Source: a virus (Duplodnaviria; Heunggongvirae; Uroviricota; Caudoviricetes). From it: DNA of 64,000 bases. A program made the position numbers and the translations under genes. The notes under the pieces were generated by a model. That model saw nothing but the letters and a program-made list of their open reading frames with translations, searched no databases and was not told where the DNA came from. Shown piece after piece: positions 19,750 through 61,374 of this stretch (the first letter of the stretch is position 1; each line of letters opens with the position of its first letter). The stretch lies in the IMG/VR virus record IMGVR_UViG_2684623127_000005, one strand, 5' to 3'.

Positions 19750-19753
19750 GCTG

Positions 19754-21984: not shown

Positions 21985-22025
21985 TGGGGTGGGCCTGAAC
22001 ACGGGGCGGGCGGCGCGGAAAAAGG
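21985..22025. other. Candidate cos site (cosN-like GC-rich segment) upstream of the terminase
   Basis: ACGGGGCGGGCGGCGCGG resembles lambda cosN (ACGGGGCGGCGACCTCGCGG); AT-rich flank; Nu1-like TerS immediately downstream. Confidence 0.4.
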
Positions 22026-22203
22026 CGCATTTTTGTGATTTTATCGTCATCATCATCATGATGGTAACTTGTTGTTTTTAATGCTGTTAGTATTAAAAAG
22101 ATGATGATTGTGGTTGTTTTTTGTTCGACATCTTTATATGGCGGCATTTCTTTACAAAAAAACAGAGTCACTTCTGTTCTGCGGTTTATGTGGAGGGATG
22201 TAA

Positions 22204-22680
22204 ATGGACGGCGAGCTGAAAAATATGAAGTTAAATATTAATCAACTGGCAGCCCTTTCAGGTCTGCACCGGCAGACTGTTGCCGCCAGAATGGCGGATG
22301 TTCCTCTTGCACCAGGCAGTAATGAAAAGAAAAAACTGTATCTCCTGACGGATTTGATAACTTCGTTGCTGGAAAAACCACCATCTTCCGAAGATGAGGA
22401 TATGGATCCTCACGCTCGTAAGGCATGGTATCAGTCCGAGCGCGAGCGTCTTAAATTTCAGCATGAAACTGTTCAGCTTGTGCCAGTCAGTGATGTCAGG
22501 CGGTCCTTTTCTGTCGTGGTGAAAGCGATAGTTCAGGTACTGGAAACCTGGCCTGACCGGCTGGAGAGGGACAGGGGGTGGACTGCATCACAACTGAATG
22601 AAGTACAGATTGTGGTTGATGAGATCCGCGACACACTGGAAAAGGCAGTCATTGACTGTTGTGATGAGGCCGATATGTGA
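22204..22680 (+). CDS. Terminase small subunit (Nu1-like HTH)
   Basis: N-terminal HTH (INQLAALSGLHRQTVAARMADVPL) similar in pattern to lambda Nu1; coupled to the large subunit. Confidence 0.6.
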   Translation: MDGELKNMKLNINQLAALSGLHRQTVAARMADVPLAPGSNEKKKLYLLTDLITSLLEKPPSSEDEDMDPHARKAWYQSERERLKFQHETVQLVPVSDVRRSFSVVVKAIVQVLETWPDRLERDRGWTASQLNEVQIVVDEIRDTLEKAVIDCCDEADM

Positions 22681-24800
22681 ATCAGGTGAACGAGAGCCAT
22701 AGCCGCGCATCCGATATCTGGCGCGAAGTGGCCTCGCTGTTTCGCCCACCCAGCCGGTTACCAGTAGCGGAAGCCATCAGGCGTTATATGCGGGTTCCAC
22801 GGGGAGCCAATACTTCCGGTCCGTGGGAGTCATCGCTGACGCCCTATATGATTGACCCCATTAATACATTATCAGCCCGTGAATATGACGCGGTGGTGTT
22901 TGTGGGACCTGCGCGAACCGGGAAAACCGAAGGGCTGATTGATGGCTGGATTGTGTACGGCATCATCTGTGATCCGGCGGATATGCTGGTGGTGCAGATG
23001 ACTGAGACGAAGGCGCGTGAGCATTCCAGAACGCGTCTTTCCAGGACGTTTCGCCACAGTCCGGAGGTCAGCAAGCGCCTCAGTCCTTCCCGTAATGACA
23101 ACAACGTCCACGATAAAATGTTTCTTGACGGCTCCTTCCTGAAGATTGGCTGGCCGTCGATCACCGTCTTTTCCTCTTCGGATTACCGTCGTGTGGCGCT
23201 GACGGATTATGACCGTTTCCCTGAAAATGTGGACGGGGAAGGGGATGCCTTCACGCTGGCCTCAAAGCGTACCACCACCTTTATGTCCTCGGGGATGACC
23301 CTGGTCGAGAGTTCACCGGGGCGGGATATCACCGATACCAAATGGCGTTGTGGTGGCGCACATGAGGCACCGCCAACAACGGGGATCCTGTCACTGTATA
23401 ACCGGGGAGACCGCCGCCGGTGGTACTGGCCGTGTCCGCACTGCGGGGAATATTTTCAGCCGGTGATGGATAACATGACCGGATACCGGAATAACCCGGA
23501 TTTTGTGGCTGCCGGTCAGGCTGCCCGTCTGATGTGTCCGCATTGTCGCGGGCTGATTGCCCCTGAGCAGAAACGCGAACTGAATAACCAGGGGATCTGG
23601 CTTCGTGAAGGTGAACGGGCGGCGGCGGACGGCAGTATCACCGGAACGCCACGAAACTCCCGGATTGCGTCATTTTGGATGGAGGGGCCAGCTGCGGCGT
23701 TTCAGACCTGGGAACAACTGATTTTTAAACTGCTGGCGGCAGAAGAAGAGTATGAGCGAACCGGCAGTGAAGAGACCCTGAAAGCGGTGGTGAACACCGA
23801 TATCGGACGACCCTATCTGCCCCGTTCAGCCACGGAACAGCGTAAAAGTGAACTGCTTGAACAGCGTGCCGAGCCGTTTCCCCGGCGATCTGTGCCGGAT
23901 GGTGTGCGTTTTATTGAGGCAACGGTTGACGTACAGGGCGGTAAAAATCGCCGTTTTGTTGTGCAGATCACCGGATACGGAGAGCAGGGGGAACGCTGGA
24001 TTGTTGATCGCTACAACATCCGGCATTCACTGCGCTGCAGTCCCAACGGTGAAAGTCTGCCGGTTGATCCGGCGGCATATCCGGAGGACTGGGATTTGTT
24101 GCTGACGGATGTGTTCCATAAAACATGGCCGCTGGCTTCTGATCCGGATGTGCGCATGCGTCTGATGGCCATGGCGGTGGATACGGGAGGGGAAGCCGGG
24201 GTGACAGATAACGCCTATCGTTTCTGGCGTCGTTGCCGGAGTGACGGACTGGGCAACAGGGTGTTTCTGTTCAAGGGGGATGGACTTCGCCGTGACAGGC
24301 TGATTAACCGAACCTTCCCGGATAATACCGGCAGAAGTGCCCGCCGTGCCAGAGCCAGTGGCGATGTCGCGCTGTGGCTGGTTCAGACGGATGCGTTTAA
24401 GGATCGTGTAAATAATGCCCTGTGGCGTGACACACCAGGGCCGAACTATATCCACTTTCCCGACTGGCTGGGGCGGTGGTTTTACGATGAGCTGACCTAT
24501 GAAGAGCGCGGCAGTGACGGAAAATGGCGAAAACCGGGCAGGGGCGCTAACGAAGCGTTTGACCTGCTGGTTTATGCGGATGCGCTTGCCGTTCTGCATG
24601 GTTACGAAAAGATCCGCTGGCCCTCCGCACCGGACTGGGCACAGCGGGAAACGTGGCTCGTCTTCCCGCAGGAGCGTTCTGGTGAAACGGTATCCCCGGA
24701 ACTGACGGCCGGGGCAGAAAAACGCCGTCGCCGGAAGAAAAAACTGCGGACGGAGCGTGCGGAAGATAATCCATGGATAACATCAGGAGGCTGGTTGTGA
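22677..24800 (+). CDS. Terminase large subunit (lambda gpA-like)
   Basis: 707 aa; Walker A-like (VGPARTGKTEG); GTG start overlapping the TerS stop. Confidence 0.85.
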   Translation: MNQVNESHSRASDIWREVASLFRPPSRLPVAEAIRRYMRVPRGANTSGPWESSLTPYMIDPINTLSAREYDAVVFVGPARTGKTEGLIDGWIVYGIICDPADMLVVQMTETKAREHSRTRLSRTFRHSPEVSKRLSPSRNDNNVHDKMFLDGSFLKIGWPSITVFSSSDYRRVALTDYDRFPENVDGEGDAFTLASKRTTTFMSSGMTLVESSPGRDITDTKWRCGGAHEAPPTTGILSLYNRGDRRRWYWPCPHCGEYFQPVMDNMTGYRNNPDFVAAGQAARLMCPHCRGLIAPEQKRELNNQGIWLREGERAAADGSITGTPRNSRIASFWMEGPAAAFQTWEQLIFKLLAAEEEYERTGSEETLKAVVNTDIGRPYLPRSATEQRKSELLEQRAEPFPRRSVPDGVRFIEATVDVQGGKNRRFVVQITGYGEQGERWIVDRYNIRHSLRCSPNGESLPVDPAAYPEDWDLLLTDVFHKTWPLASDPDVRMRLMAMAVDTGGEAGVTDNAYRFWRRCRSDGLGNRVFLFKGDGLRRDRLINRTFPDNTGRSARRARASGDVALWLVQTDAFKDRVNNALWRDTPGPNYIHFPDWLGRWFYDELTYEERGSDGKWRKPGRGANEAFDLLVYADALAVLHGYEKIRWPSAPDWAQRETWLVFPQERSGETVSPELTAGAEKRRRRKKKLRTERAEDNPWITSGGWL

Positions 24801-25009
24801 GCACAGAAGAAGCCAGAGAAATGATACAGCGGTACCGTGAAGCGGAAATGGCCGTACTGGAGGGAAAGTCTGTCATCTTCAACGGGCAGCAACTGACGCT
24901 GGAAAGCCTTTCTCAGATCCGCGCCGGACGTCAGGAGTGGGAACGCAGGCTTGCCGCGATGGTGAGCCGCAGGCGGGGAAAACCGGGATTTAAACTGGCG
25001 AGGTTTTAA
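24773..25009 (+). CDS. W: Head-tail joining protein, gpW-like (likely GTG start at 24797)
   Basis: About 70 aa ending ...RRRGKPGFKLARF (lambda W ends ...RRRGPAGFYV); AGGAGG RBS before the GTG at 24797. Confidence 0.5.
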   Translation: MDNIRRLVVSTEEAREMIQRYREAEMAVLEGKSVIFNGQQLTLESLSQIRAGRQEWERRLAAMVSRRRGKPGFKLARF

Positions 25010-26511
25010 TGGCAATTATTGATGATGTGATCGGCGTGTTTTCCCCCGGGTGGAAAGCAGCCAGACTGCGTTCAAGGGCGTTAATCATGGCCTATGAGGC
25101 GGTGAAACCGACCCGGACACATAAAGCCCGGCGGGAAAATCGCTCTGCTGATCAGCTCAGTAAATACGGTGCGGTTTCCCTGCGGGAGCAGGCCCGTTTT
25201 CTGGATATCAATCATGACCTGGTGATTGGTGTGTTTGACAAGCTGGAAGAGCGGGTGATTGGTGCCAGGGGAATTATTGTGGAGCCTCAGCCATTACGAA
25301 AAAACGGGGAAATGGCGGCTGAGCTGGCTGCGGATATCCGCCGTTTGTGGGCTGAATGGTCCGTGAGTCCGGATGTGACAGGGCAGTATACCCGTCCTGT
25401 GCTTGAACGTTTACTGCTGCGGACCTGGCTGCGGGATGGTGAAGTGTTTGCGCAGATGGTCAGTGGTGCGGGAAACGGTCTGGAACGGACGGCGGGAGTG
25501 CCATTCTGGCTTGAGGCGATGGAGCCGGATTTTGTTCCCATGCGCACTGATGAATCCGCCGGACTGAATCAGGGGGTTTTTCTTGATGAGTGGGGAAGAC
25601 CGAAAAAATATCTGGTTTATAAAAATTATCCGGTCAGCGGCCGGCAGAGTGATACGAAAGAAATCGCTGCCGGAAAAATGATCCACCTGAAGTTCACTCG
25701 TCGTCTGCATCAGACGCGAGGCTCATCCATGTTATCGGGGGTGCTGATGCGGATCAGTGCCCTTAAGGAGTATGAGGATGCGGAACTGACAGCGGCGCGT
25801 ATTGCTGCGGCGCTGGGACTGTATATCCGTAAAGGTGACGGACAGGACTATGAAGATCCGGGGATCAAAGAGACCGAGCGGGAAGTCCATATCACCCCGG
25901 GTATTATTTATGACGATTTGCGCAAGGGCGAGGATATCGGCATGGTCAAATCTGACCGTCCCAATCCCAACCTTGAAACTTTCCGCAACGGCCAGTTGCG
26001 TGCAGTGGCAGCAGGCAGTCGTCTGAGTTTTTCCAGTGCGGCGCGTAACTATAACGGCACCTACAGCGCCCAGCGGCAGGAGCTGGTCGAGTCCACGGAT
26101 GGTTACCTGATCCTGCAGGACTGTTTTATTGGCGCGGTAACCCGCCCGGTGTACCGGACATGGCTGAATATGGTGGTTGCGGCAGGTCTGCTGAAAATTC
26201 CGGCGGATGTGGAGATGAAAACGCTATATAACGCGACGTATTCCGGTCCGGTGATGCCGTGGATCGACCCGGTTAAGGAAGCTGAAGCCTGGAGAATTCA
26301 GATCCGGGGTGGTGCAGCGACAGAATCTGACTGGGTGCGTGCCGGTGGGCGCAATCCGGATGAGGTCAAACGTCGCCGCAAGGCTGAAATTGATGAAAAC
26401 AGCAGACTGGGGCTGGTCTTTGATACTGACCCCGTCAACGACAAAGGAGGCAACAGTGCCGGAACTGAACGACAGTATCAGCGCGACACCGAAAGCCAGC
26501 ATGAAGAATAA
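25009..26511 (+). CDS. Portal protein (lambda gpB family)
   Basis: 500 aa, position after terminase/W, lambda-B-like N-terminus. Confidence 0.85.
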   Translation: MAIIDDVIGVFSPGWKAARLRSRALIMAYEAVKPTRTHKARRENRSADQLSKYGAVSLREQARFLDINHDLVIGVFDKLEERVIGARGIIVEPQPLRKNGEMAAELAADIRRLWAEWSVSPDVTGQYTRPVLERLLLRTWLRDGEVFAQMVSGAGNGLERTAGVPFWLEAMEPDFVPMRTDESAGLNQGVFLDEWGRPKKYLVYKNYPVSGRQSDTKEIAAGKMIHLKFTRRLHQTRGSSMLSGVLMRISALKEYEDAELTAARIAAALGLYIRKGDGQDYEDPGIKETEREVHITPGIIYDDLRKGEDIGMVKSDRPNPNLETFRNGQLRAVAAGSRLSFSSAARNYNGTYSAQRQELVESTDGYLILQDCFIGAVTRPVYRTWLNMVVAAGLLKIPADVEMKTLYNATYSGPVMPWIDPVKEAEAWRIQIRGGAATESDWVRAGGRNPDEVKRRRKAEIDENSRLGLVFDTDPVNDKGGNSAGTERQYQRDTESQHEE

Positions 26512-51273: not shown

Positions 51274-51501
51274 ATGTTTAAATCAGACGTAATTAATTTT
51301 TATGGGACGAAAGCCAAAGTAGCGAAAGCTGCTGGTGTTGATCCATCTGCTGTTTCTCAATGGGGGGAACTGGTTCCTGAAGGTCGCGCGATGCGCCTGC
51401 AAGAGGCATCCGGCGGGGAACTTCAGTACGACCCCAAAGTTTATGACGAATATCGTAAGGCAAAGCGGGCGGGGCGGTTGAACAATGAAAATCACCCCTG
51501 A
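51274..51501 (+). CDS. Cro-like HTH protein
   Basis: ATG at 51274 with GGAGG RBS; HTH (GTKAKVAKAAGVDPSAVSQW). Confidence 0.65.
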   Translation: MFKSDVINFYGTKAKVAKAAGVDPSAVSQWGELVPEGRAMRLQEASGGELQYDPKVYDEYRKAKRAGRLNNENHP

Positions 51502-52036
51502 ACAGGTTTGTGAGGCTCTGGATGCCTGGGTATGTCGACCAGGAATGACACAGGAGCAGGCGACGATATTAATCACGGAAGCATTCTGGGCTCTGAAAGA
51601 ACGCCCGAACATCGATGTTCAACGCGTCACGTTTAATGATGGCGAGGTTGATCAACGGGCGCTGGGCGTTAACCGGGTGAAGATATTCGAACGCTGGAAA
51701 GCTATCGACACCAGGGATAAGCGGGAAAAATTCACGGCGCTGATTCCGGCAATTATGGAGGCTATCCGAATTAGTGATTTCAGGTTGTATCGTGAGATCA
51801 GTGATGGAAAAAGCATTACGTACATGATCGCCGGATTAAACAAAGAATATGGCGATGTGGTGGAGTCCGGGCTGCTTTTTGCGGATCCAGCTGTTGTGGA
51901 ACGTGAGACTGACGAGCTTATAGAAAAAGCTATTGCTTTCAAGCATGCGTATCGTCAGCAATATCAATATTACTTTGCAGATAAACAAATATCTGCCAGG
52001 GGTTCGTATGAGTATCGATGCACTACGATGGGCTAA
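51485..52036 (+). CDS. Rac YdaT-like protein (tentative)
   Basis: 183 aa in the cII position of a Rac-like early-right operon; family from memory. Confidence 0.5.
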   Translation: MKITPEQVCEALDAWVCRPGMTQEQATILITEAFWALKERPNIDVQRVTFNDGEVDQRALGVNRVKIFERWKAIDTRDKREKFTALIPAIMEAIRISDFRLYREISDGKSITYMIAGLNKEYGDVVESGLLFADPAVVERETDELIEKAIAFKHAYRQQYQYYFADKQISARGSYEYRCTTMG

Positions 52037-53048
52037 AAAGGTGAAAACCGGCAGTTCATCCAGTAAGTCTGTATTGACCTGGCTTGCTGATATGTGCGGT
52101 GCCGATTTGTGTGCATACCCGTCTGTATCTGCACTGGCAGATGTAACGGAACTGAACAAAAAGACTGTGCAGGACAGCTTACGACACCTGATGGAGATTG
52201 GGTTAATTGTTGATACCGGTGAGAGAAAAGGCAGAACAAAGCAAATTGTGGTGTACCGACTTATCGGTGTAGAAGAAAGTGTTGCCGAGCCTGAATACAC
52301 CCAAAAACGGGTGTCTTTAAAGGTGGGTAAAATTGGTGCTGTTAATAAAAACAGTACCGAAAACGGTTATGTTTCAGCACAAAAGAGCCCCAAAAACGGA
52401 ACTCTTTGTTGCATGGAAAATAACCAAAGACACCCAAATTTTCCATCAAAGACACCCAAAAACGGATCACGGAACCCAAAGGAACCCAAAGATCTAAACC
52501 CCACACATAACGCACGCGAGAGTGCTCCGACCAGTGAGCAGGAAGTTTTGTCGTTACAGGCAGCCCCCCATGTATTCCTGGATGGCCTGAGCGAACCCAT
52601 CGGAAAATTTCCGATGACCGATAGCTGGTATCCGTCACGGGATTTTCGACGACGGGCTGCGTTGTGGGGGATGGCTTTGCCGGAGACAGAATTTACACCT
52701 GCTGAACTTACCGCATTCCGGGACTACTGGGCAGCGGAGGGGAAAGTGTTTACGCAGATTCAGTGGGAGCAGAAATTCGCCCGTCACGTAAATCACGTCA
52801 GGGCGCAGGTTAAACCAGTCAGCAAGGGGGTAAACCATGCAGCAGCACCAGGTGGCACCGCATCACGGGCAGTTCAGGAAATTCGGGCAGCACGTGAGCA
52901 GTGGGAACGTGAAAACGGATTTATCAGCGACGGAAACGGCCTGGAAGCTGTGGGAACTCATGGGGGAGGTTTATTCGAACCGCTGGACCCAGAAGAACGG
53001 GGCCGCACCTTCGAAGCTCTGGATTGCACAGATTGGCGCGATGACTGA
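52008..53048 (+). CDS. Replication initiator (O-like, N-terminal HTH)
   Basis: MSIDALRWAKKV...SVLTWLADMCG... N-terminal HTH; followed by and overlapping a P-like gene. Confidence 0.6.
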   Translation: MSIDALRWAKKVKTGSSSSKSVLTWLADMCGADLCAYPSVSALADVTELNKKTVQDSLRHLMEIGLIVDTGERKGRTKQIVVYRLIGVEESVAEPEYTQKRVSLKVGKIGAVNKNSTENGYVSAQKSPKNGTLCCMENNQRHPNFPSKTPKNGSRNPKEPKDLNPTHNARESAPTSEQEVLSLQAAPHVFLDGLSEPIGKFPMTDSWYPSRDFRRRAALWGMALPETEFTPAELTAFRDYWAAEGKVFTQIQWEQKFARHVNHVRAQVKPVSKGVNHAAAPGGTASRAVQEIRAAREQWERENGFISDGNGLEAVGTHGGGLFEPLDPEERGRTFEALDCTDWRDD

Positions 53049-53502
53049 GCAGCAAATCCGGCAGGTCTGCCGCCAGTGCATGGACCGCTGCCGGGCGGGT
53101 GAAACATGGCCTCCGGACCTGGCTGAGTTTGTGGCGCTGATTTCGGAAAGCGGGGCCAATCCATTTGGCCTGACGGTGGATGCTGTGATGGAGGAGTATC
53201 GCCGCTGGCGTAATGAGTCCTGGCGATATAACGGAAGCGACAAATATCCGTGGCCTCAGCCTGTGCTGTATCACATTTGCCTCGAGATGCGTTCAAAGGG
53301 GATTGAACGCCAGATGACCGAAGGGGAATTAAAACGGCTTGCAGAACGGCAGCTGACGAAATGGGCAAAGCATGTTAGTAACGGCCTGAGCGTTCCGCCA
53401 GTACGGCGACAACTGGCGGCACCAAAACGCCCGTTGGGACCAACGCCAATTGAGTTGCTGAAACAGGAGTATGAACGCCGGAAAGCGGCTGGTTTTGTCT
53501 GA
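53041..53502 (+). CDS. Replication protein P-family (helicase-loader-like C-terminal region)
   Basis: ...YPWPQPVLYHICLEMRSKG...LKRLAERQLTKW... parallels lambda P C-terminal half (...YPWKSNAHYWLVTNLYQN...LRRKAADELVHM...); ATG at 53041 overlaps the O stop. Confidence 0.65.
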   Translation: MTEQQIRQVCRQCMDRCRAGETWPPDLAEFVALISESGANPFGLTVDAVMEEYRRWRNESWRYNGSDKYPWPQPVLYHICLEMRSKGIERQMTEGELKRLAERQLTKWAKHVSNGLSVPPVRRQLAAPKRPLGPTPIELLKQEYERRKAAGFV

Positions 53503-53535
53503 TTTGAGAAGTATTTTTATCCGGAGGAAGTTTTA

Positions 53536-54306
53536 ATGGAAACCGTATTGCATGCACTGAAAGCGATGGGTAAAGCCAATTCTGTTGAACTGGCGGCACG
53601 AATTGATATCAGCCGTGAAGAAGTTCTCAACGAACTGTGGGAGCTCAAAAAAAATGGCGTTGTTGATAAAACGGGTCACACCTGGTTTCTGGCTGTCGAA
53701 GGTGAATCCCGGGTAACCGAAGAGCGGCCAGTAAAATCTGAAACACAGGATATGCTGACCGAAGAGGTCGCTCCAAAAGTTAGCGCTAACATGATGATTG
53801 AGTTTATCGCTCAGGAGGGGGCTAAAACCTGTGAAGAAATAGCGGGTAAGTTCGGTGTCAGTACTCGCAAGGTTGCTTCCACGCTGGCGGTGGTAACCGC
53901 AACGGGGCGGCTGGCACGCGTTAATCAGAACGGTAGATTTCGTTACTGCATGCCGGGCGATAATTTACCAGCAGAGCCGAAAGCCGCGCTGGTAACGGAA
54001 AATGATGGTAAGGCCTTTCCTCAGCCAGCAGGTGCTGCGTTACCAGTCCGGGAAGCCGCAACACAGGAAGAAATAAAAACTGAAAGTGTGGCGGTCACAG
54101 TGCAGTCACAGCCGTTGTTCACCAGAAAACATCCGGATGGTCTGATTTTACCATCGCTGCATGTGGCTAACCGCGAGCTGCGCCGGGCAAAAGGTCAGGT
54201 TCAGAAGTGGGAGCGTGTCTGCGCCGCGCTGCGGGAGCTGAACAAGCACCGGGATATTGTTCGGCAGATTGTCGATTCATCCGGTCGTATTGTGTCGGAA
54301 AAGTGA
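53536..54306 (+). CDS. Hypothetical protein (256 aa)
   Basis: Clean ORF in the nin-like region. Confidence 0.5.
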   Translation: METVLHALKAMGKANSVELAARIDISREEVLNELWELKKNGVVDKTGHTWFLAVEGESRVTEERPVKSETQDMLTEEVAPKVSANMMIEFIAQEGAKTCEEIAGKFGVSTRKVASTLAVVTATGRLARVNQNGRFRYCMPGDNLPAEPKAALVTENDGKAFPQPAGAALPVREAATQEEIKTESVAVTVQSQPLFTRKHPDGLILPSLHVANRELRRAKGQVQKWERVCAALRELNKHRDIVRQIVDSSGRIVSEK

Positions 54307-54702
54307 TTGCCGGAGGCGCTTATGGCGAAACCTTTTACACACGAACAGCGTGAAGAACTGAAGGCCCGAATTATCGGGCTGGTACGCAAAAATGAACGCA
54401 TGACGATATCACAACTGGAGAGAGCGACGGGAGCAGGCTGGCATTCAGTCAGACGTTGCCTTGTGGATGTACTGGCTTGTGGCGATTTATACATGCCCGG
54501 TAAATACGGTGTTTTTGCATCAGAACAGGTGTATCGCGTATGGCGTAAGGCAGCGGAGAAAACAACCGACCAGACATTGATTCGAAAGTTACCAGACGGA
54601 GAAATACGCCGCTATGACAGGCATCAGAACATAATTTGCAGTGAGTGCCGAAATAGCGAAGTTATGCAGCGTGTACTGGCGTTCTGTCAGGGGAATTTTT
54701 AG
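54307..54702 (+). CDS. Hypothetical protein (131 aa)
   Basis: ORF starting 1 nt after the previous stop. Confidence 0.5.
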   Translation: MPEALMAKPFTHEQREELKARIIGLVRKNERMTISQLERATGAGWHSVRRCLVDVLACGDLYMPGKYGVFASEQVYRVWRKAAEKTTDQTLIRKLPDGEIRRYDRHQNIICSECRNSEVMQRVLAFCQGNF

Positions 54703-54774
54703 GAGGTGGTGCTGTGAGTGAAATTAGCTATCAGGCTTCAATTGCCGCTGGCATTCGCATCAAAGGAGAGGTGC

Positions 54775-55131
54775 ATGGAAATAAAACCAGAAGATGAGTT
54801 AAGTAATATTGTTTTATTTCCGGTAAAAGAGGATGACCCACGTAATCAGGTTAATTTTCTTTATGAGCCATCGGAAAGACCATATTGCCATCACGCCTCT
54901 GTCCGGGTTGACGAAAAAGAGCGTCAGGTCCGCTGTAAAATCTGCGGTGCAGTTGTGGAGCCATTTGACTGGATGCTCTCTGTGGCGAAAAGAGAAACCA
55001 GACTGGCAGATGATGTAAGGCTCTTGCGTCAGGAGGAGCGGGAAAGGCGAAAAAATATAGAAAAGCTAATTCAGATTGAGCGTAACGCGAAAGCGCGGAT
55101 ACGCAGGGCGACAAAATCCAGAACTGAATAA
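54775..55131 (+). CDS. Hypothetical protein with CxxC pair (zinc-ribbon-like)
   Basis: ATG at 54775 with AAAGGAGAGG RBS; CHHAS...CKICGA motif. Confidence 0.45.
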   Translation: MEIKPEDELSNIVLFPVKEDDPRNQVNFLYEPSERPYCHHASVRVDEKERQVRCKICGAVVEPFDWMLSVAKRETRLADDVRLLRQEERERRKNIEKLIQIERNAKARIRRATKSRTE

Positions 55132-55225
55132 TTAAATTTAGCTCTGTTAAAAATTTAATCCTTAACCGGAGGGGGGGGAGGCGCCCTCAGAACATCAGGA
55201 GGCTGTCCGGCAGGGCGGTAGTTAA

Positions 55226-55399
55226 ATGCGAAAGTTCAAAATAATTATTGAAACGGGAATAGCCGGTGGAGATTTCGAGGATGAATTCGAAGTGGATGAT
55301 GATGCGACGCCTGATGAAATACATGACGAAGCAAAAGATATTTTCTTTAACTACTGCAATTACTCATATCACGAAATAAAAGACGAAGAGGAAGAATAA
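55226..55399 (+). CDS. Small highly acidic protein (57 aa), weak call
   Basis: ORF found by eye (below the ORF-track cutoff); more than a third of residues are Asp/Glu; weak RBS. Confidence 0.25.
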   Translation: MRKFKIIIETGIAGGDFEDEFEVDDDATPDEIHDEAKDIFFNYCNYSYHEIKDEEEE

Positions 55400-55658
55400 A
55401 ATGGCTGATTTTGCTTCAACTAAATATAACGCCAATTTTGAAGAATGGCATGAACTGTTAATGGACTATGTAGAGTTACCGCGGTGGAAGCATGGCGTGA
55501 TATGAAGTTGCATAAGAAGTTGCTTTCTTTATCTGGAAATAATATATCCTCTAACGGGAAAGAAATAGAAAATGGTGACTTTAATGAATCCAACCCCCAA
55601 TAAAAAGAGGTTGGGAATACTATGGTTAAATTAGAGTAAATATCTTGGATATCTAAAA

Positions 55659-56375
55659 TTAGGTTACTTTTACGCCTATAAAGGTGTAATCATCCATTAT
55701 GTTTTTCTCAATCCTTTTTCTTAAACTACTCGCAAAAGCTGTTGGTGAGAGCATTGTCTTCTCAGAAAACCTTGGTCTGACATCCCAATGCTTATAGGCA
55801 CCATCAGTCATTGCATAGAGTTGAAGATAGCCATTATAAATTAGCTGGCTAATCGGAAAAGACATTAACTCAAAATTCAAATCCGTTGTATTTGATAAAG
55901 CATTCGTTAGGACTGAAGATAGCCGTTCTTTATGATTTCTTAAATTACGTAATTTATGTTCACCAGAATCAAGGAGTTCTTGATATCTCGTTTGATCAGT
56001 GGTTAACTGATTTAGTTTATTGTTTTTATTGAAGTATACTCGGCAATCACCGGAATGACCAATTAACACTTCATTTTTTTTGATCTGAACAATTGTTAAG
56101 GTTGTGGCAGTGCTAATATCTAAATTGTCAATTTCTTTTTTAGCTGAATGAAATGCACTTTCAATTGAGAAAAAGGAAGTGCCTAGCGTGTGTCTAATGC
56201 CACGAATGGCTGCATGAGATGCAAGCATTGAATGTTCAGAGGAACCAACCCCATCAGCTACTGCAAAGACAATGTTAAAATCGCTATCAAAAGATGGCGG
56301 TAAATAAAAGTCTTCATTTTCTTTTTTTTGGGGTTGTTTTAGGCTAAAACATGCCATTTCAATTATGTTCTTCAT
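55659..56375 (-). CDS. PP2C-family Ser/Thr protein phosphatase
   Basis: FAVADGVGSSEHS metal-binding motif, GDCRVY, and C-terminal MTDG motif; overlaps the upstream kinase stop. Confidence 0.7.
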   Translation of the reverse strand: MKNIIEMACFSLKQPQKKENEDFYLPPSFDSDFNIVFAVADGVGSSEHSMLASHAAIRGIRHTLGTSFFSIESAFHSAKKEIDNLDISTATTLTIVQIKKNEVLIGHSGDCRVYFNKNNKLNQLTTDQTRYQELLDSGEHKLRNLRNHKERLSSVLTNALSNTTDLNFELMSFPISQLIYNGYLQLYAMTDGAYKHWDVRPRFSEKTMLSPTAFASSLRKRIEKNIMDDYTFIGVKVT

Positions 56376-57153
56376 GATTTACCTCCCCCGTCACTTTTAA
56401 AAAATCTTCCAGTAACTCCCGTGTGCTTTGATATCGTTCTTCAGGCCAATGTGCGCAACATTTTGCAATCAATCTTTTTAATTTTTCACTTCTTTCTGTG
56501 GGATATATATCAGTGATAATTTTACCTGCTGCAAATATGTCACTTTGAAAAGAAAAAAGACCGCTATCATGTATTTCGGGCGCTCGATATCCATCTGTGC
56601 CCATGTGATTAGGCTTAAATTTTGTTTTGATTTCGGCCCGTAAGGTATCTCTGTCTTTTACTAGACCAAAATCAGATATTTTATACTTTCCATCGGCATA
56701 ATAAAGTATGTTTCCTGGTTTTAAATCACGATGTATATAGTTGTTTTCATGTATGGTGATAATTCCTTTTAAAATCTGAGTAACAGCAGACTTCCTCTCC
56801 GCGTAGTTCATACCATTGCGGATGGCTTCATATAAGTTACACTCTGCCAATTCCATAACAAAATAAGGTTTATCACCATTTGTATTAAATAAAACTATTG
56901 GCGCTATTGAATCATAGTTTATTCTATTGAGAGTGCATTGTGTTTTGATCTCAACTAAAAAACGCTGTCTTAAATCAGTCAACTCTTTTATAGCGGTCTT
57001 GTCAAAGTCCGGGCAAGGTGAAAAGTATTTGCGAGCATATGTGGTCATGTGGGTCTGGGTTAAGTTATAGACATCAACCTTAAATACTTCGCCAAAACTC
57101 CCTTGTCCTAAACTGCGACCATCTTTAAGTAAATAATTACCGCACCGATCCAC
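56359..57153 (-). CDS. Hanks-type (eukaryotic-like) Ser/Thr protein kinase
   Basis: Gly-rich loop LGQGSFGEV, catalytic loop HRDLKPGNIL, DFG and APE motifs in canonical order. Confidence 0.8.
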   Translation of the reverse strand: MDRCGNYLLKDGRSLGQGSFGEVFKVDVYNLTQTHMTTYARKYFSPCPDFDKTAIKELTDLRQRFLVEIKTQCTLNRINYDSIAPIVLFNTNGDKPYFVMELAECNLYEAIRNGMNYAERKSAVTQILKGIITIHENNYIHRDLKPGNILYYADGKYKISDFGLVKDRDTLRAEIKTKFKPNHMGTDGYRAPEIHDSGLFSFQSDIFAAGKIITDIYPTERSEKLKRLIAKCCAHWPEERYQSTRELLEDFLKVTGEVNHEEHN

Positions 57154-57563
57154 GGCGCCCCCTTAACTCTCAGTAATGGATTGATAAGACTGGAAAAACA
57201 TGCATTACCTCCTTTTATACACGTTTGCTATTTTTATTGCAATGCCTCACCTGTGGGCACTTAGAAAGGTGAGATTCTGATGAGTCTTTAACTGATTGAA
57301 TTCGTTCCAATGTGGGAATCCCACATCGGGAGAACATTACCAATAGGGATAAAAACGATTTGTGGGAAAAGGGGAGTTAAGTAAAATTGCTGCGGGTGCT
57401 TGAGGCTATCTGTCTCAGGCATGAACACCAAAAGGCAGATAGAGAAAAGCCCCAGTTAACATTACGCGTCCGGCAAGACGCTTAACATTAATCTGAGGCC
57501 ATATCTATGCTCTACACACGTAGGTTAGCCTCTTACGTGCCGAAAGGCAAGGAGAAGCAGGCT

Positions 57564-57719
57564 ATGAAGCAGCAAAAGGCGATGCTAATCGCCCTGATCG
57601 TCATCTGTTTAACCGTCATAGTGACGGCACTGGTAACGAGGAAAGACCTCTGCGAGGTACGAATCCGAACCGGCCAGACGGAGGTCGCTGTCTTCACAGC
57701 TTACGAACCTGAGGAGTAA
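57564..57719 (+). CDS. hok: Hok/Gef-family type I toxin (upstream in-frame extension from 57507 is mok-like)
   Basis: MKQQKAMLIALIVICLTVIVTALVTRKDLCEVRIRTGQTEVAVFTAYEPEE is near-identical to Gef/Hok peptides. Confidence 0.8.
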   Translation: MKQQKAMLIALIVICLTVIVTALVTRKDLCEVRIRTGQTEVAVFTAYEPEE

Positions 57720-57935
57720 GAGACTGGCGGGGGAGAAATCCCTCGCCACCTCTGATGTGTCAGGCATCCTCAACGCACCCGCACTTAACCCGCTTCGGCG
57801 GGTTTTTGTTTTTATTTTCAACGCGTTTGAAGTTCCGGACGGCGCCGGAATAGAATCAAAAATACTTAAGTAGCGCGCAGGGAGAAGAGGGATGGACCCC
57901 GAACAGGGGAGTGCTATTTATCTGGAAGGATTCTG

Positions 57936-58196
57936 TTGATGAGAATCGAAGAATTACGTGAAATTTTTAGTGAAGATGGCCTCTATACTGTGCGCGTTGA
58001 GAATGGCGCTATTGTCAGCCACTGCCGTATTAAATGTTTACAGTCTCAACAAAGGAAGAGTGGAGCTGCGTTAATTCATTTTGTGGATGGGCTTGTGACG
58101 GATGGTTTTATTTTGCGTGCAAATGAATTTGTCACATCGTTGCCGTCTCTGAAAGAAGCTGGGATTAAGGCTGGTTTTTCTGCTTTTGAAGATTAG
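57936..58196 (+). CDS. Hypothetical protein (86 aa)
   Basis: ORF in the nin-like region. Confidence 0.4.
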   Translation: MMRIEELREIFSEDGLYTVRVENGAIVSHCRIKCLQSQQRKSGAALIHFVDGLVTDGFILRANEFVTSLPSLKEAGIKAGFSAFED

Positions 58197-58265
58197 TGAA
58201 TTCATCTACAATTCAGCGCAGGGCTGAACCCCTGCTGAGTAACACTGTGCCACCGGAGAAAGCCG

Positions 58266-58544
58266 ATGGCGCAAAATTCCAGACTACACAATTCTGATAA
58301 TTCAGCCGTCTTTGCCAGCGGGCACGGGCGGCGTTCTCATGCATTCAAATCTGACTGGTACCAGCATCCCCCATGCACTGAAGAACAGGCCGAATGGCTC
58401 ATTCAGTGTTACCGCAGGCGCGGATGCGAGGTTAAAAAAGCCCTTAGCCTCGACTACCGTCACTGGATAATCTCCGTCAGGCCCCCTTACTCCGAACGGC
58501 CACCGCGTCCGTCCCGCACATTCCAGCAACGGATCTGGAGGTAA
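58266..58544 (+). CDS. Hypothetical protein (92 aa)
   Basis: ORF ending 1 nt before the DUF968 gene. Confidence 0.4.
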   Translation: MAQNSRLHNSDNSAVFASGHGRRSHAFKSDWYQHPPCTEEQAEWLIQCYRRRGCEVKKALSLDYRHWIISVRPPYSERPPRPSRTFQQRIWR

Positions 58545-58545
58545 T

Positions 58546-59595
58546 GTGCGGGTATTACTTCGACCTGTTCTGGTACCGGAACTCGGTCTGGTTATCGTTA
58601 AGCCAGGCCGTGAATCAATGTCAGCATTCCATAACGGCAGAATACTGGTGGAGCCGGAACCAAAAAGCATGCGAGCTCTGCCGTCCGGGGTTGTACCTGC
58701 CGTTCACCAGCCGCTGGCGGAAGATAAATCACTACTGCCATTTTTCAGCGATGAGCGGGTGATCCGTGCTGCGGGTGGCGCTGGTGCACTGTCTGACTGG
58801 TTATTACGTCACGTGAAATCCTGCCAGTGGCTACACGGTGATTATCATCACAGCGAAACCGTCATTCACCGTTACGGTACCGGCGCGATGGTGTTGTGCT
58901 GGCACTGCGACAACCAGCTGCGGGAGCAGACATCTGATTCACTGGATCAACTTGCTCAACAGAATCTGGCCGCCTGGATGATTGACATCATCCGTCACGC
59001 AATGAATGGCGCACAGGAGCGTGAATTATCTCTGGCTGAATTATCCTGGTGGGCGGTCCGCAATCAGGTGGCGGACGCGCTACCGGAAGCGGTATTACGT
59101 CGTTCGCTGGGGTTGCGTGCGGAAAAAATCCGCTCCGTATACCGTGAAAGCGACATCATACCGGGAGAACAGACCGCCACCAGCATACTGAAGCAGCGCA
59201 CAAAAAATATTGCGCTACCGTCTCACACCCACCAGCAACAGAACCCACCACAGGAAAAGACGGTGGTCAGCATTGCCGTTGATCCGGAGTCTCCGGAATC
59301 CTTCATGAAACGACCTAAACGTCGCCGCTGGGTAAATGAGAAATACACACGCTGGGTAAAGACACAGCCGTGTGCGTGTTGTGGTAAGCCAGCCGACGAT
59401 CCCCATCACCTGATTGGTCATGGTCAGGGCGGAATGGGGACAAAATCTCACGATATTTTCACGCTACCGCTGTGTCGGGAGCATCACAACGAGCTTCATG
59501 CGGATCCGCTGGCGTTCGAAGAAAAGCATGGTTCTCAGGTTGATTTAATTTTTCGTTTTCTTGATCACGCCTTTGCAACTGGCGTGCTTGGGTAA
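58546..59595 (+). CDS. DUF968-like protein with C-terminal HNH-like motif (copy 2)
   Basis: GTG start with GGAGG RBS; C-terminal 110 aa nearly identical to copy 1, N-terminal region diverged. Confidence 0.6.
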   Translation: MRVLLRPVLVPELGLVIVKPGRESMSAFHNGRILVEPEPKSMRALPSGVVPAVHQPLAEDKSLLPFFSDERVIRAAGGAGALSDWLLRHVKSCQWLHGDYHHSETVIHRYGTGAMVLCWHCDNQLREQTSDSLDQLAQQNLAAWMIDIIRHAMNGAQERELSLAELSWWAVRNQVADALPEAVLRRSLGLRAEKIRSVYRESDIIPGEQTATSILKQRTKNIALPSHTHQQQNPPQEKTVVSIAVDPESPESFMKRPKRRRWVNEKYTRWVKTQPCACCGKPADDPHHLIGHGQGGMGTKSHDIFTLPLCREHHNELHADPLAFEEKHGSQVDLIFRFLDHAFATGVLG

Positions 59596-59607
59596 AAGAG
59601 GTGACTG

Positions 59608-59982
59608 ATGCTCATAGATTTGGTTTTACCTTACCCGCCGACGGTGAACACTTACTGGCGACGCCGTGGCAGCACATATTTTGTATCAAAAGCCGGGGAG
59701 CGTTATCGCCGGGCAGTGGCGCTTATTGTTCGCCAGCAGCGACTGAAATTAAGCCTGTCCGGACGGCTGGCAATAAAAATTATTGCAGAGCCACCGGATA
59801 AGCGCCGCCGTGACCTGGACAATATTCTGAAAGCACCGCTGGATGCGCTGACGCACGCGGGGTTGTTAATGGACGATGAGCAGTTTGATGAAATCAATAT
59901 TGTACGTGGAAAGCCAGTATCTGGTGGACGTCTGGGGGTGAAGATTTACCCCATAATGCTTGAAGGGCAGGTCAAAAAATGA
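59608..59982 (+). CDS. rusA: RusA Holliday junction resolvase
   Basis: ...RRDLDNILKAPLDALTHAGLLMDDEQ... matches the RusA catalytic core. Confidence 0.8.
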   Translation: MLIDLVLPYPPTVNTYWRRRGSTYFVSKAGERYRRAVALIVRQQRLKLSLSGRLAIKIIAEPPDKRRRDLDNILKAPLDALTHAGLLMDDEQFDEINIVRGKPVSGGRLGVKIYPIMLEGQVKK

Positions 59983-60800
59983 AACTGGAAGATTTACCGA
60001 AATACTACTCCCCAAAATCCCCTGGCCTGACCGATGCATCGGCCTCAACGTCAAAAGATGCGCTGAGTATCACTGATGTGATGGCCGCGCAGGGCATGAC
60101 ACAGAATCGGGCTGAGATGGGGTTTTCTGCGTTCCTTGGGAAAATGGGCATTAGTATGAATGACAGAGAGCGGGCAACAGAATTGCTGACAGAATATGCA
60201 CTCAGTCGGTGTGATCGCGTGGCGGCGTTAAGAAAACTCCCGGCAGAAATAAAACCGGCAGTGATGCGTATTATGGCTTCGTATGCGTTTGAAGATTATG
60301 CCCGTAGCGCGGCGAGCAAAAAACAGTGCTCCTGCTGTCACGGAAAAAAATTTATTGAAAGCGAGGTTTTTACAAACAAGATCCAGTATCCGGATGGTAA
60401 GCCGCCGGTATGGGCAAAGTGTACGAAAGGTGTGTATCCGTCTTACTGGGAAGAATGGAAAAAAGTCAGGGAGGTGGTAAAAGTTGCCTGTCCGGAGTGT
60501 GGCGGAAAGGGTGAGGTTTCCACCGCCTGTAAGGATTGCCGTGGGCGTGGTGTCGCCATTCATCGTGAAGAGTCGGTAAAACGTGGTATGCCTGTTATCA
60601 GAGACTGCCAGCGTTGTGGTGGTCGTGGCTGTGAAAGACTACCATCAACGGAGGCATTTAATGCCATATGTAATGTAACCGATGCCATATCTCTTGATAC
60701 ATGGAAAAAAACAGTTAAACGTTTTTACGATACGCTGGTGGTGCAGTTTGATATTGAAGAAGCATGGGCAGAACAACAACTGAAAAAGGTGACCAGATAG
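59979..60800 (+). CDS. Putative late antiterminator Q (large Q family with Cys-rich zinc-binding motifs)
   Basis: Position directly upstream of a terminator and the duplicated late segment; CPECGGKG / CKDCRGRG / CQRCGGRGC motifs. Confidence 0.5.
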   Translation: MKLEDLPKYYSPKSPGLTDASASTSKDALSITDVMAAQGMTQNRAEMGFSAFLGKMGISMNDRERATELLTEYALSRCDRVAALRKLPAEIKPAVMRIMASYAFEDYARSAASKKQCSCCHGKKFIESEVFTNKIQYPDGKPPVWAKCTKGVYPSYWEEWKKVREVVKVACPECGGKGEVSTACKDCRGRGVAIHREESVKRGMPVIRDCQRCGGRGCERLPSTEAFNAICNVTDAISLDTWKKTVKRFYDTLVVQFDIEEAWAEQQLKKVTR

Positions 60801-60882
60801 CTTTGTTGATTTTTCCCGAATCTGTGGTAAATTTGCCCTAACGATGGGCGTTTTATGCCTGACGTTAGAAGATTTTTTACAC

Positions 60883-60904
60883 CCCGCCGCCTGGCGGGTT
60901 TTTT
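60883..60904 (+). terminator. Rho-independent terminator (tR-prime candidate of prophage 2)
   Basis: CCCGCC-GCCT-GGCGGG followed by TTTTTT. Confidence 0.5.
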
Positions 60905-61026
60905 ATGACTGAAATCGCGTCAGTACAGTAAACGCGCTGGTGGCGGTGAATACCGGTCTTTCAGCTTGCTGGCTTTTTTGACAAGAGTTATTGGTGTGTC
61001 ACGTTAACCGAAAAAGGGAAAAAGAC

Positions 61027-61224
61027 ATGCTGAAACAGCAGGATATGACAGAAACTGCCAGAGCAGTGTTTAATGAATTAAGCGTCACCGAACCGGCGAC
61101 AGTCGGGGAGATTGCGCAGAATACTTACCTTTCACGCGAACGCTGCCAGTTAATACTGACCCAGCTTGTTATGGCGGGTCTGGCAGACTATCAGTTCGGT
61201 TGTTACAGACGCCTTCAGTCCTGA
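61027..61224 (+). CDS. Hypothetical small protein (copy of 13342-13539)
   Basis: 65 aa, differs from copy 1 at only a few residues. Confidence 0.45.
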   Translation: MLKQQDMTETARAVFNELSVTEPATVGEIAQNTYLSRERCQLILTQLVMAGLADYQFGCYRRLQS

Positions 61225-61374
61225 AGGCTTTTTTATTTGTGGTAAATGGGCGACTGGTGGGTGTTAGGGGCACTCACCAGCCATCTGCTCATGCGTCCGG
61301 ATCACAAGCAAACCTCAGGCCCACTGCTTTGCGCAAAAGCAGAATGAGCCTATCAGAGACAGGCTTAATGATCC

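What the first reader, a model, noticed from the sequence alone, without database searches (positions are those of the whole stretch)
55659..57153. Low-GC island with an overlapping Ser/Thr kinase and PP2C phosphatase in prophage 2
A complete Hanks-type kinase and a PP2C phosphatase overlap by 17 nt on the minus strand, opposite to the flanking early-right operon and in visibly AT-rich DNA. As I recall, a prophage-encoded Ser/Thr kinase (Stk of phage 933W) has been reported to exclude phage HK97, and kinase-based abortive-infection systems are known. The built-in phosphatase partner would make this a reversible toxin/antidote-like variant.
Basis: partly seen in the sequence, partly recalled or inferred. 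Interest (0 to 1): 0.7.

Follow-up and report, generated by a model that had tools for sequence, protein, structure and literature searches.

The report
Mobile kinase–phosphatase pair in a prophage
A rare, AT-rich two-gene cassette in an E. coli lambdoid prophage encodes an intact protein kinase always followed by its own phosphatase; it travels between phages, satellites and other mobile elements, sits in known anti-phage hotspots, and is most likely an untested, stripped-down relative of known kinase-based phage-defence/toxin-antidote systems.

Summary
ORFs 56359-57153(-) and 55659-56375(-) encode a complete Hanks-type Ser/Thr kinase (264 aa) and a complete PP2C phosphatase (238 aa). They overlap by 17 nt, run antisense to the early-right operon, and have 36% GC against about 50% in the flanks.

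The pair is a discrete 1.86-kb insert (55491-57346) between a DUF7167 gene and hok/sok. Only 35 of 5426 complete E. coli genomes carry it; the flanks occur in 4540.

The kinase-then-phosphatase pair is a conserved unit. All 80 kinase-anchored viral loci have the PP2C downstream. Three phosphatase-anchored loci keep the PP2C beside a truncated kinase. Catalytic residues are invariant or nearly so in both families, and dN/dS is about 0.1.

Its closest relative (84% aa) is the sole cargo of the P4-satellite psu-int defence hotspot.

It is not an orthologue of 933W Stk, nor a member of KKP, PD-T4-6 or MAD6.

The best reading is a minimal two-gene kinase (toxin/effector) and phosphatase (antidote/brake) conflict module, probably abortive-infection defence expressed from the prophage. 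No function has been tested. The concept was already shown for the three-gene KKP system in 2024, so this is a new variant of a known kind, of moderate interest.

The parts
55491..57346 (.). Cassette-specific DNA (moron): everything between the two breakpoints shared with related phages that carry other cargo at this site
   Evidence: blastn against three related phages (L005, L006, L007) loses homology at 55490 and regains it at 57346/57347. GC of the two genes is 0.359, against 0.502 in the flanks.
56359..57153 (-). Hanks-type (eukaryotic-like) Ser/Thr protein kinase, 264 aa, kinase domain only, RD-type, with a conserved activation-loop Thr177
   Evidence: Pfam Pkinase 1.4e-31. Catalytic residues are invariant or nearly so in 81 homologues. 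AF2 pLDDT 90 with a kinase fold. HRDLKPxN and G[T/S]xxYxAPE indicate Ser/Thr specificity. Thr at position 177/178 in 80 of 81 sequences.
55659..56375 (-). PP2C/PPM-family Ser/Thr phosphatase, 238 aa, catalytic domain only
   Evidence: Pfam PP2C_2 1.4e-10. Metal-binding Asp residues are invariant in 97 homologues. AF2 pLDDT 94; Foldseek TM 0.73-0.78 to PstP, MspP and tPphA.
56359..56386 (-). Translational-coupling junction: GGAGG (56386-56382) inside the kinase 3' end, phosphatase ATG at 56375, kinase stop at 56361-56359
   Evidence: Read directly from the sequence. The kinase-phosphatase junction is -17 to +10 nt in all 11 loci measured.
57214..57242 (-). Candidate sigma-70 promoter of the cassette: TTGCAA (57242-57237), 17-nt spacer, TATAAA (57219-57214)
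   Evidence: Read directly from the sequence. The scan tool missed it because it requires T at the last -10 position. The -10 and the spacing are kept in the 91% variant and in the P4-satellite variant. Homology with the P4 version extends to 57233. Not tested.
55590..55614 (-). 9-bp GC-rich hairpin 45 nt after the phosphatase stop; possible but non-canonical terminator (no U tract)
   Evidence: RNA fold. z-score is only -1.5, and the terminator scan did not call it.

Best explanation
The island is a self-contained, horizontally mobile two-gene 'KP' module: its own promoter, then the kinase, then a translationally coupled PP2C phosphatase. It is carried as a moron in a variable slot of a lambdoid prophage.

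Proposed mechanism; every step below is inferred:
1. The module is transcribed from its own promoter, antisense to the repressed early-right operon, so it is expressed in the lysogen.
2. The RD-type kinase would activate itself by activation-loop phosphorylation (Thr177). It would then phosphorylate many host and/or phage proteins, arresting growth.
3. The co-translated phosphatase continuously reverses this and keeps the cell healthy. This is type-VII-like toxin/antidote logic.
4. Infection by another phage tips the balance. A phage protein either inhibits the phosphatase or activates the kinase. The resulting phosphorylation burst aborts or stalls the infection, protecting the lysogen population and the prophage.
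5. During the prophage's own induction, rightward transcription through the cassette would run against it and could damp it.

Shown here: both enzymes are intact and under purifying selection. The pair is inherited as an obligate unit. It is rare accessory cargo. It occupies recognised defence hotspots and classic moron slots.

Not shown: toxicity, neutralisation, any phage phenotype, the trigger, and the substrates.
For: Intactness and selection:
- All catalytic motifs are present and conserved.
- The folds are confident.
- dN/dS is 0.06-0.12 for both genes.

Obligate pairing:
- The PP2C lies downstream of the kinase in all kinase-anchored neighbourhoods from genomes and phages.
- All 80 kinase-anchored IMG/VR loci have a PP2C downstream: 77 within 400 nt and 3 about 560-600 nt away.
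- 76 of 80 phosphatase-anchored loci have the kinase directly upstream.
- Junctions are -17 to +10 nt.
- No conserved third gene was found.

Asymmetric decay fits a toxin/antidote pair. Three viral loci keep an intact PP2C next to a 5'-truncated kinase remnant. The reverse was never seen.

Accessory and mobile:
- 35 of 5426 E. coli genomes carry it, against 4540 for the flanks.
- Breakpoints are sharp, and related phages carry different cargo at the site.
- The cassette is AT-rich relative to nearly every host, for example 0.37 against 0.59 in Aeromonas.

Location:
- The 84%-identical relative is the only cargo between psu and int of P4-like satellites in E. coli, Klebsiella and Enterobacter. 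That locus was shown to be an anti-phage hotspot (PMC9122126).
- Other members sit directly downstream of cI-like repressors.
- Others lie between Q and the lysis genes, between lysis genes and terminase, next to integrases, or on a small integrative mobilisable element.

The kinase scores against PADLOC defence-kinase models: mad6 1e-37, PD-T4-6 1e-32, Stk2 3e-25.

Precedent: KKP shows that prophage kinases restrained by a PP2C act as a toxin/antitoxin and as a defence triggered when a phage protein inhibits the phosphatase (PMC11341870).
Against: - No experiment exists for this family in the searched literature.
- PADLOC has no model for the phosphatase.
- The kinase hits are generic kinase-domain similarity, far below NCBIfam family cut-offs.
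- Hotspot and moron slots also carry non-defence cargo.
- In phages Flotzy and phiES15, and in several IMG/VR contigs, the pair is co-oriented with late genes. Expression there may be lytic rather than lysogenic.
- Two members (Acinetobacter, Aeromonas) lie in chromosomal sites without obvious mobile-element genes.
- The promoter is only a consensus match, and no canonical terminator was found.
- The three truncated-kinase loci are few and may descend from a single event.
Confidence: 0.45

Rival explanations
1. Lysogeny or host-physiology regulator. The kinase/phosphatase balance sets the phosphorylation state of a host regulator, for example a nucleoid-associated silencer. That in turn controls induction of this or co-resident prophages, which are abundant in STEC, or some host trait. 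Any defence effect would be absent or secondary.
For: KKP does exactly this through MvaU, in addition to defence (PMC11341870). Some members lie directly downstream of, and co-oriented with, cI-like repressors. The carrier strains are polylysogenic STEC and EPEC.
Against: The same cassette also occurs on P4 satellites, on a small mobilisable element, and in chromosomal sites of unrelated genera. A regulator tuned to one phage's switch would not transfer so easily. There is no DNA-binding or sensor domain in either protein.
Confidence: 0.2
2. Pure addiction (post-segregational killing) module. It stabilises whatever element carries it and has no anti-phage role.
For: The pairing and the asymmetric decay fit any toxin-antitoxin pair. 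It sits next to another stabilising toxin-antitoxin locus, hok/sok.
Against: Classical addiction needs an antidote that is less stable than the toxin. Nothing in the data suggests a labile PP2C. The kinase-first, antidote-second gene order and the enrichment in the psu-int hotspot resemble defence cargo more closely.
Confidence: 0.12
3. Phage-benefit host-takeover or counter-defence kinase, like T7 gp0.7, active during lytic growth. The phosphatase would limit collateral damage or timing.
For: Phage kinases can disarm host defences (bioRxiv 10.1101/2024.12.20.629319, listed). In Flotzy, phiES15 and several viral contigs the pair lies in the late operon, in the late orientation.
Against: In this window the pair is antisense to the lytic operon. 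Late expression is a poor time for counter-defence. Members on satellites, on mobilisable elements and in chromosomal islets have no lytic programme.
Confidence: 0.1
4. Orthologue of the 933W Stk exclusion kinase, or a secreted virulence effector kinase of EHEC.
For: Both are prophage kinases in STEC. 933W Stk aborts HK97 infection (Friedman 2011, cited). The low GC resembles effector morons.
Against: Identity to Stk is 27% over about 190 residues only, and Stk has no phosphatase partner. The family occurs in Vibrio, Acinetobacter, Aeromonas and Xenorhabdus elements and in non-LEE E. coli. An effector would not need a co-translated antagonist.
Confidence: 0.03

Closest known systems
KKP (PfpC-PfkB-PfkA) kinase-kinase-phosphatase module of Pf and other prophages (Guo et al., Nat Commun 2024, PMC11341870)
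   Same: It is encoded on prophages and satellites, including P2 and P4 hotspots. It combines Hanks-type Ser/Thr kinase activity with a PP2C (PF13672) phosphatase in one operon. The phosphatase neutralises kinase toxicity. It defends against lytic phages.
   Different: KKP has three genes in the order phosphatase, kinase, kinase. Its definition requires a cold-shock domain on PfkA and an FHA domain on PfkB, and toxicity needs both kinases. Here there is one 264-aa kinase with no extra domain, the kinase comes first, and the phosphatase is a bare 238-aa catalytic domain (the E. coli KKP phosphatase is 387 aa). Sequence similarity is only at superfamily level: 22-29% to the KKP kinases, and E=0.009 for the phosphatase.
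Stk of phage 933W (Friedman et al. 2011)
   Same: A eukaryotic-like kinase encoded on an STEC lambdoid prophage. It is expressed from the prophage and causes abortive infection of a superinfecting phage.
   Different: Stk is 348 aa, lies downstream of cI in the immunity region, and has no phosphatase partner. It is only 27% identical over the C-lobe. It is reported to be a tyrosine kinase, whereas this kinase has Ser/Thr-type HRDLKPxN and G[T/S]xxYxAPE motifs.
PD-T4-6 (Vassallo et al. 2022, PMC9519451) and staphylococcal Stk2 (Depardieu et al. 2016)
   Same: Both are kinase-domain anti-phage proteins. PADLOC PD-T4-6 and Stk2 models match the window kinase (1e-32 and 3e-25), so PADLOC-type tools would probably label this gene PD-T4-6-like.
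   Different: Both are single-gene systems. PD-T4-6 spans 1311 nt (about 436 aa) and carries a C-terminal extension beyond its kinase domain. Neither has a phosphatase partner.
'Pkinase | PP2C_2' cargo of P2 hotspots (system 150, 13 loci, Table S5 of Rousset et al. 2022)
   Same: A two-gene kinase-then-PP2C arrangement in an E. coli phage defence hotspot. It was catalogued and does not appear among the systems listed as tested in Table S2.
   Different: Its kinase is more than 400 aa with a long C-terminal region. Identity to the window proteins is 29% and 27%, so it is a separate family.

Membership tests
KKP (kinase-kinase-phosphatase) | Three-gene cluster: PP2C phosphatase followed by two kinases | tested here: not met
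   There is one kinase followed by the phosphatase. No second kinase lies within the cassette or its flanks. No conserved third gene appears across loci.
KKP (kinase-kinase-phosphatase) | PfkA-like kinase with a C-terminal cold-shock domain, and PfkB-like kinase with a C-terminal FHA domain | tested here: not met
   The kinase domain fills the whole 264-aa protein. Pfam finds no CSD or FHA. The AF2 model is a bare bilobal kinase.
KKP (kinase-kinase-phosphatase) | Phosphatase neutralises kinase toxicity; defence triggered by a phage protein | not testable with these tools
   This needs expression and infection assays. The only support here is indirect: obligate pairing and asymmetric decay.
933W Stk family | Close sequence relationship to Stk (orthology) | tested here: not met
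   BLASTP gives 27% identity over residues 104-258 only. 933W did not appear among the tblastn hits at E<1e-3.
933W Stk family | Stand-alone kinase in the immunity region downstream of cI | tested here: not met
   Here the kinase lies in the replication-to-nin region, antisense, with a PP2C partner. The neighbours of Stk have no phosphatase domain.
PD-T4-6 | Single-gene system: a protein of about 436 aa with an N-terminal kinase domain and a C-terminal extension | tested here: not met
   The window kinase is 264 aa and is paired with a PP2C. The PD-T4-6 coordinates span 1311 nt as a single CDS. The HMM match covers only the kinase core.
MADS MAD6 kinase | Reaches the NCBIfam equivalog cut-off and sits in a multi-gene methylation-associated system | tested here: not met
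   NF047741 scores 70.6 bits against a cut-off of 460. There are no MADS genes nearby.
Hanks-type (ePK) Ser/Thr kinases | All catalytic subdomain motifs and the bilobal fold | tested here: met
PP2C/PPM phosphatases | Metal-coordinating Asp residues of motifs 1, 2, 8 and 11, and the PPM beta-sandwich fold | tested here: met
Phage moron / defence-hotspot cargo | Discrete insert with deviant composition and its own expression signals at a site where related phages carry other genes; relatives located in experimentally defined hotspots | tested here: met
   Breakpoints and alternative cargo are shown. GC is shown. The P4 psu-int location of the 84% relative is shown (hotspot defined in PMC9122126). 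The promoter is only a consensus match.

The most novel reading that the evidence does not exclude
The KP pair is the minimal form of phosphorylation-based immunity: two bare catalytic domains with no accessory sensor domain. In this reading the phosphatase itself is the phage sensor, inhibited by a phage protein, and its faster evolution relative to the kinase would reflect that role. The resulting growth arrest would be reversible rather than suicidal. The antisense placement would let the host prophage switch the system off by transcriptional interference when it enters its own lytic cycle.
Probability: 0.15. Interest if true: 0.65.

Novelty: new variant of a known kind. Interest (0 to 1): 0.45.

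Why it matters
If the pair does defend, it would be the simplest kinase/phosphatase immune module known. Two single-domain enzymes with no accessory domains would make it a tractable system for three questions. How does a phage trigger tip a kinase/phosphatase balance? Which substrates matter? Can phosphorylation-based immunity be reversible rather than suicidal?

It would also add a phage-exclusion determinant to prophages of Shiga-toxin-producing E. coli (O157, O103, O145, O121, O45) and of pig ETEC. That matters for phage therapy and biocontrol, and for competition among the many lambdoid prophages these strains carry.

If the pair instead tunes prophage induction, it could influence Stx-phage release.

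The genes are already named generically in RefSeq, and the concept has a published precedent. The gain would therefore be incremental rather than conceptual.

Tried and rejected
- 933W Stk orthology was rejected after direct comparison.
- KKP membership was rejected on architecture and on direct BLASTP against E. coli KKP proteins taken from Rousset Table S1.
- PD-T4-6 and MAD6 membership was rejected. The hits cover only the kinase core, scores are far below the curated cut-offs, and the architecture is wrong.
- A conserved third component was sought among the genes downstream or upstream in eight loci. None are homologous to one another.
- An upstream 12-codon mini-ORF with a strong Shine-Dalgarno sequence was considered as a leader peptide. 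Its frame is not kept in the 91% and 80% variants, and the SD lies at or before the predicted transcription start, so it was dropped.
- A structured 5' UTR or a known RNA family inside the cassette was sought. There is no Rfam hit, and folding is no better than shuffled sequence.
- A canonical intrinsic terminator after the phosphatase was not found. There is only a hairpin without a U tract.
- PADLOC scans of neighbours in non-phage contexts gave only weak or candidate hits, apart from a SIR2 (PDC-S25) gene near the P4 copy.
- Literature searches for a characterised two-gene kinase-PP2C defence returned only KKP.
Full report
**1. Observation**

The kinase is at 56359-57153 on the minus strand (GTG start, 264 aa). 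The phosphatase is at 55659-56375 on the minus strand (ATG start, 238 aa). They overlap by 17 nt.

Pfam gives Pkinase at E=1.4e-31 and PP2C_2 at E=1.4e-10. Both starts have good ribosome-binding sites. AAGGGGG lies 4 nt before the GTG. GGAGG lies 6 nt before the ATG, inside the kinase 3' end, which implies translational coupling.

GC is 0.33-0.39 across the pair and about 0.50 on either side. All neighbouring genes are on the + strand. They include a DnaT-like/O-type replication gene, a P-like gene, DUF1627, DUF977, DUF7167, hok, DUF968, RusA and Q.

The region is 99.9% identical to a lambdoid prophage of E. coli O103:H2 12009. There PGAP already calls the two genes 'serine/threonine protein kinase' (WP_000373318) and 'PP2C family protein-serine/threonine phosphatase' (WP_000789359).

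**2. Both enzymes look active**

The kinase has every Hanks motif: G16xG18xxG21, K42, E68, HRDLKPGN (141-148), DFG (161-163), APE (191-193), D205 and R240. The phosphatase has the PPM metal-binding motifs: NED (20-22), DGVG (41-44), GDCR (109-112), DG (191-192) and DD (228-229).

In alignments of 81 kinase and 97 phosphatase cluster representatives, these residues are invariant or at least 90% conserved.

AlphaFold2 models are confident, with pLDDT 90.2 and 93.9. The kinase model matches full-length kinase domains. The phosphatase model matches bacterial PPMs (PstP, MspP, tPphA, Stp1) over its whole length at TM 0.73-0.78.

The HRDLKPxN and G[T/S]xxYxAPE signatures predict Ser/Thr specificity. 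The kinase is RD-type, and an activation-loop Thr at position 177/178 is present in 80 of 81 family members. By established kinase biochemistry, this suggests activation by loop phosphorylation, which a PP2C could reverse. That step is inference.

dN/dS against the 91% and 80% nucleotide variants is 0.06-0.12 for both genes.

**3. A discrete, rare, mobile insert**

Three related phages share the flanks but lose homology at exactly 55490 and regain it at 57346/57347. Each carries different small genes in between.

The flanks occur in 4540 of 5426 complete E. coli genomes. The cassette occurs in only 35:
- 29 at 99% identity or more, mostly O157, O103, O145, O121 and O45 STEC plus pig ETEC;
- four at about 91.5%, in the same slot;
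- two at 80%.

The 80% version is in a P4-like satellite, between the integrase and psu. Its 84%-identical kinase (P0002) is listed in 124 blocks of the collection's index. In every place shown it is the only cargo between psu and int of P4-like satellites in E. coli, Klebsiella and Enterobacter.

Homology between the lambdoid and P4 copies runs from the phosphatase stop (55661) to 80 nt upstream of the kinase start (57233). That stretch includes a TATAAA -10 element with a TTGCAA -35 at 17-nt spacing. The mobile unit therefore appears to carry its own promoter.

No canonical terminator follows the phosphatase, only a 9-bp hairpin without a U tract.

**4. The pair is an obligate unit across Gammaproteobacteria**

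The kinase belongs to a compact family of about 84 cluster representatives. They are 255-265 aa long and 34-92% identical. Below them there is a sharp drop to generic kinases of about 440 aa. The phosphatase family mirrors this and shares the same contigs.

Every neighbourhood examined has kinase then phosphatase on one strand, with a junction of -17 to +10 nt:
- a Vibrio integrative mobilisable element;
- a Xenorhabdus prophage;
- Acinetobacter and Aeromonas chromosomes;
- Pantoea, next to an integrase;
- a Ferrimonas prophage, directly after the cI-like repressor;
- Dickeya, next to a YafO toxin-antitoxin pair;
- phage Flotzy, between lysis genes and terminase;
- phage phiES15, between Q and lysis genes.

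In IMG/VR, 76 of 80 phosphatase-anchored loci have the kinase directly upstream. All 80 kinase-anchored loci have a family PP2C downstream, 77 within 400 nt and 3 about 560-600 nt away.

The four phosphatase-anchored exceptions are informative. One is cut by a contig end. The other three keep an intact PP2C next to only the last 75 or so residues of the kinase. So the kinase can be lost while the phosphatase stays, and the reverse was not seen. That is the asymmetry expected if the kinase is harmful when unopposed. The numbers are small.

Ten sampled viral contexts are the classic moron slots: after cI, between Q and lysis genes, between lysis genes and terminase, beside antirepressors, beside the integrase, and within tail genes. 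No conserved third gene exists. The cassette is AT-rich relative to almost every host.

**5. What it most likely does**

The psu-int locus of P4 satellites was shown experimentally to be a reservoir of anti-phage systems (Rousset et al. 2022, PMC9122126). The position right after cI is where lambda rexAB and 933W stk sit; that comparison rests on my own knowledge.

The kinase scores against PADLOC defence-kinase models: mad6 1e-37, PD-T4-6 1e-32 and Stk2 3e-25. The phosphatase has no PADLOC model.

The closest mechanistic precedent is KKP (Guo et al. 2024, PMC11341870). KKP is a prophage phosphatase plus two kinases. The kinases are jointly toxic by phosphorylating many essential proteins. The PP2C neutralises them. 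T4 Gp59 triggers defence by inhibiting the phosphatase. The same module also tunes prophage induction through a nucleoid protein.

I therefore favour a two-gene kinase (effector/toxin) and phosphatase (brake/antidote) conflict module. It would be expressed from the lysogen and give abortive-infection-type protection. Only the genetics and enzymology-by-homology are shown here. Toxicity, neutralisation, trigger, substrates and phenotype are all inferred.

The antisense orientation suggests that the prophage's own early-right transcription could damp the module during induction. This is speculative.

**6. Rivals**

- A lysogeny or physiology regulator, which is not exclusive of defence, as KKP shows.
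- A pure addiction module. The neighbouring hok/sok locus shows that this slot collects such cargo.
- A lytic-phase host-takeover or counter-defence kinase of the T7 gp0.7 type (listed). The late-operon orientation in some phages favours this. The antisense placement here and the non-phage carriers argue against it.
- An Stk orthologue or a secreted effector. The first is rejected by sequence, the second is disfavoured by the family's taxonomic distribution and its co-translated antagonist.

**7. Comparison with known systems**

- Not KKP. It has one kinase rather than two, no CSD or FHA domain, the opposite gene order, and bare catalytic domains. Identity to E. coli KKP kinases is 22-29%, and the phosphatase match has E=0.009.
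- Not 933W Stk. Identity is 27% over the C-lobe, and Stk has no phosphatase partner.
- Not PD-T4-6, which is a single protein of about 436 aa.
- Not MAD6. The score is 70 bits against a cut-off of 460.
- A different two-gene 'Pkinase | PP2C_2' pair was catalogued in 13 P2-hotspot loci by Rousset et al. (Table S5). Its kinase exceeds 400 aa and it is only 29% and 27% identical. Only the three-gene version appears in their table of tested systems.
- No paper in the searchable library characterises a two-gene kinase-PP2C defence.

**8. Verdict**

Novelty: a new variant of a known kind. It is a minimal, single-kinase, domain-only family that is mobile among lambdoid phages, P4 satellites and other elements, and it is experimentally untested.

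Interest is moderate (0.45). A specialist would not be surprised. The cassette's simplicity, its clear boundaries and its presence in STEC prophages make it a convenient and cheap system to test.

Noticed in passing
window 57394-57719: A hok/sok type-I toxin-antitoxin locus lies immediately right of the cassette. Rfam sok scores 117 bits and E 2.9e-27. The Hok ORF at 57507-57719 has Pfam E 2.9e-23. The cassette's right breakpoint (57346/7) lies just outside it, so two toxin-type modules are adjacent in this slot.
   Followed up: partly
window 55226-55399 (+): A 57-aa DUF7167 / phrog_1997 gene sits at the left edge of the variable slot. It is conserved in thousands of E. coli prophages, and its function is unknown.
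   Followed up: no
window 57163-57213 (-): AAGGAGG followed by a 12-codon mini-ORF (MFFQSYQSITES) lies just upstream of the kinase. The nucleotide sequence is conserved in the 91% and 80% variants, but the reading frame is not. It is probably promoter or 5'-UTR DNA rather than a leader peptide.
   Followed up: partly
L082 5781-5993, L083 5775-5993, L085 939-1157 (IMG/VR contigs): Only the C-terminal 75 or so residues of the kinase remain upstream of an intact PP2C. The kinase has been lost while the phosphatase is retained. The converse was not seen in 80 kinase-anchored loci.
   Followed up: partly
protein clusters of P0002 / P0122: In Salmonella enterica, almost all members of the 84% variant are 'partial' fragments of 80-130 aa at contig ends, for both kinase and phosphatase. 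The cause is unexplained. It could be assembly breaks in low-GC DNA, or an insertion or repeat inside the genes.
   Followed up: no
L021 2653-4005 (E. coli Z1323PEC0011): A SIR2-family gene matching the PADLOC candidate PDC-S25 (E 4e-77) lies next to the P4 satellite that carries the 80% kinase-phosphatase copy. The neighbourhood is rich in defence genes.
   Followed up: no
Rousset et al. 2022 Table S5, system 150: A separate two-gene 'Pkinase | PP2C_2' family occupies 13 P2-hotspot loci in E. coli. Its kinase is more than 400 aa with a long C-terminal region. It is 29% and 27% identical to the window proteins and does not appear in their table of tested systems.
   Followed up: partly
window 57727-57808: There is a sub-threshold Rfam isrK-like match (24.9 bits against a gathering score of 50). 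It overlaps a strong terminator-like hairpin at 57787-57804 just after hok. This is probably the hok mRNA 3' end.
   Followed up: no
window 13199-25509 vs 49855-64000: Late-region genes of the O103:H2 12009 prophage match a first region of the window at 96-99% identity. The early region matches 49855-64000 at 99.9%. This is consistent with two related lambdoid prophages in the window sharing mosaic segments.
   Followed up: no
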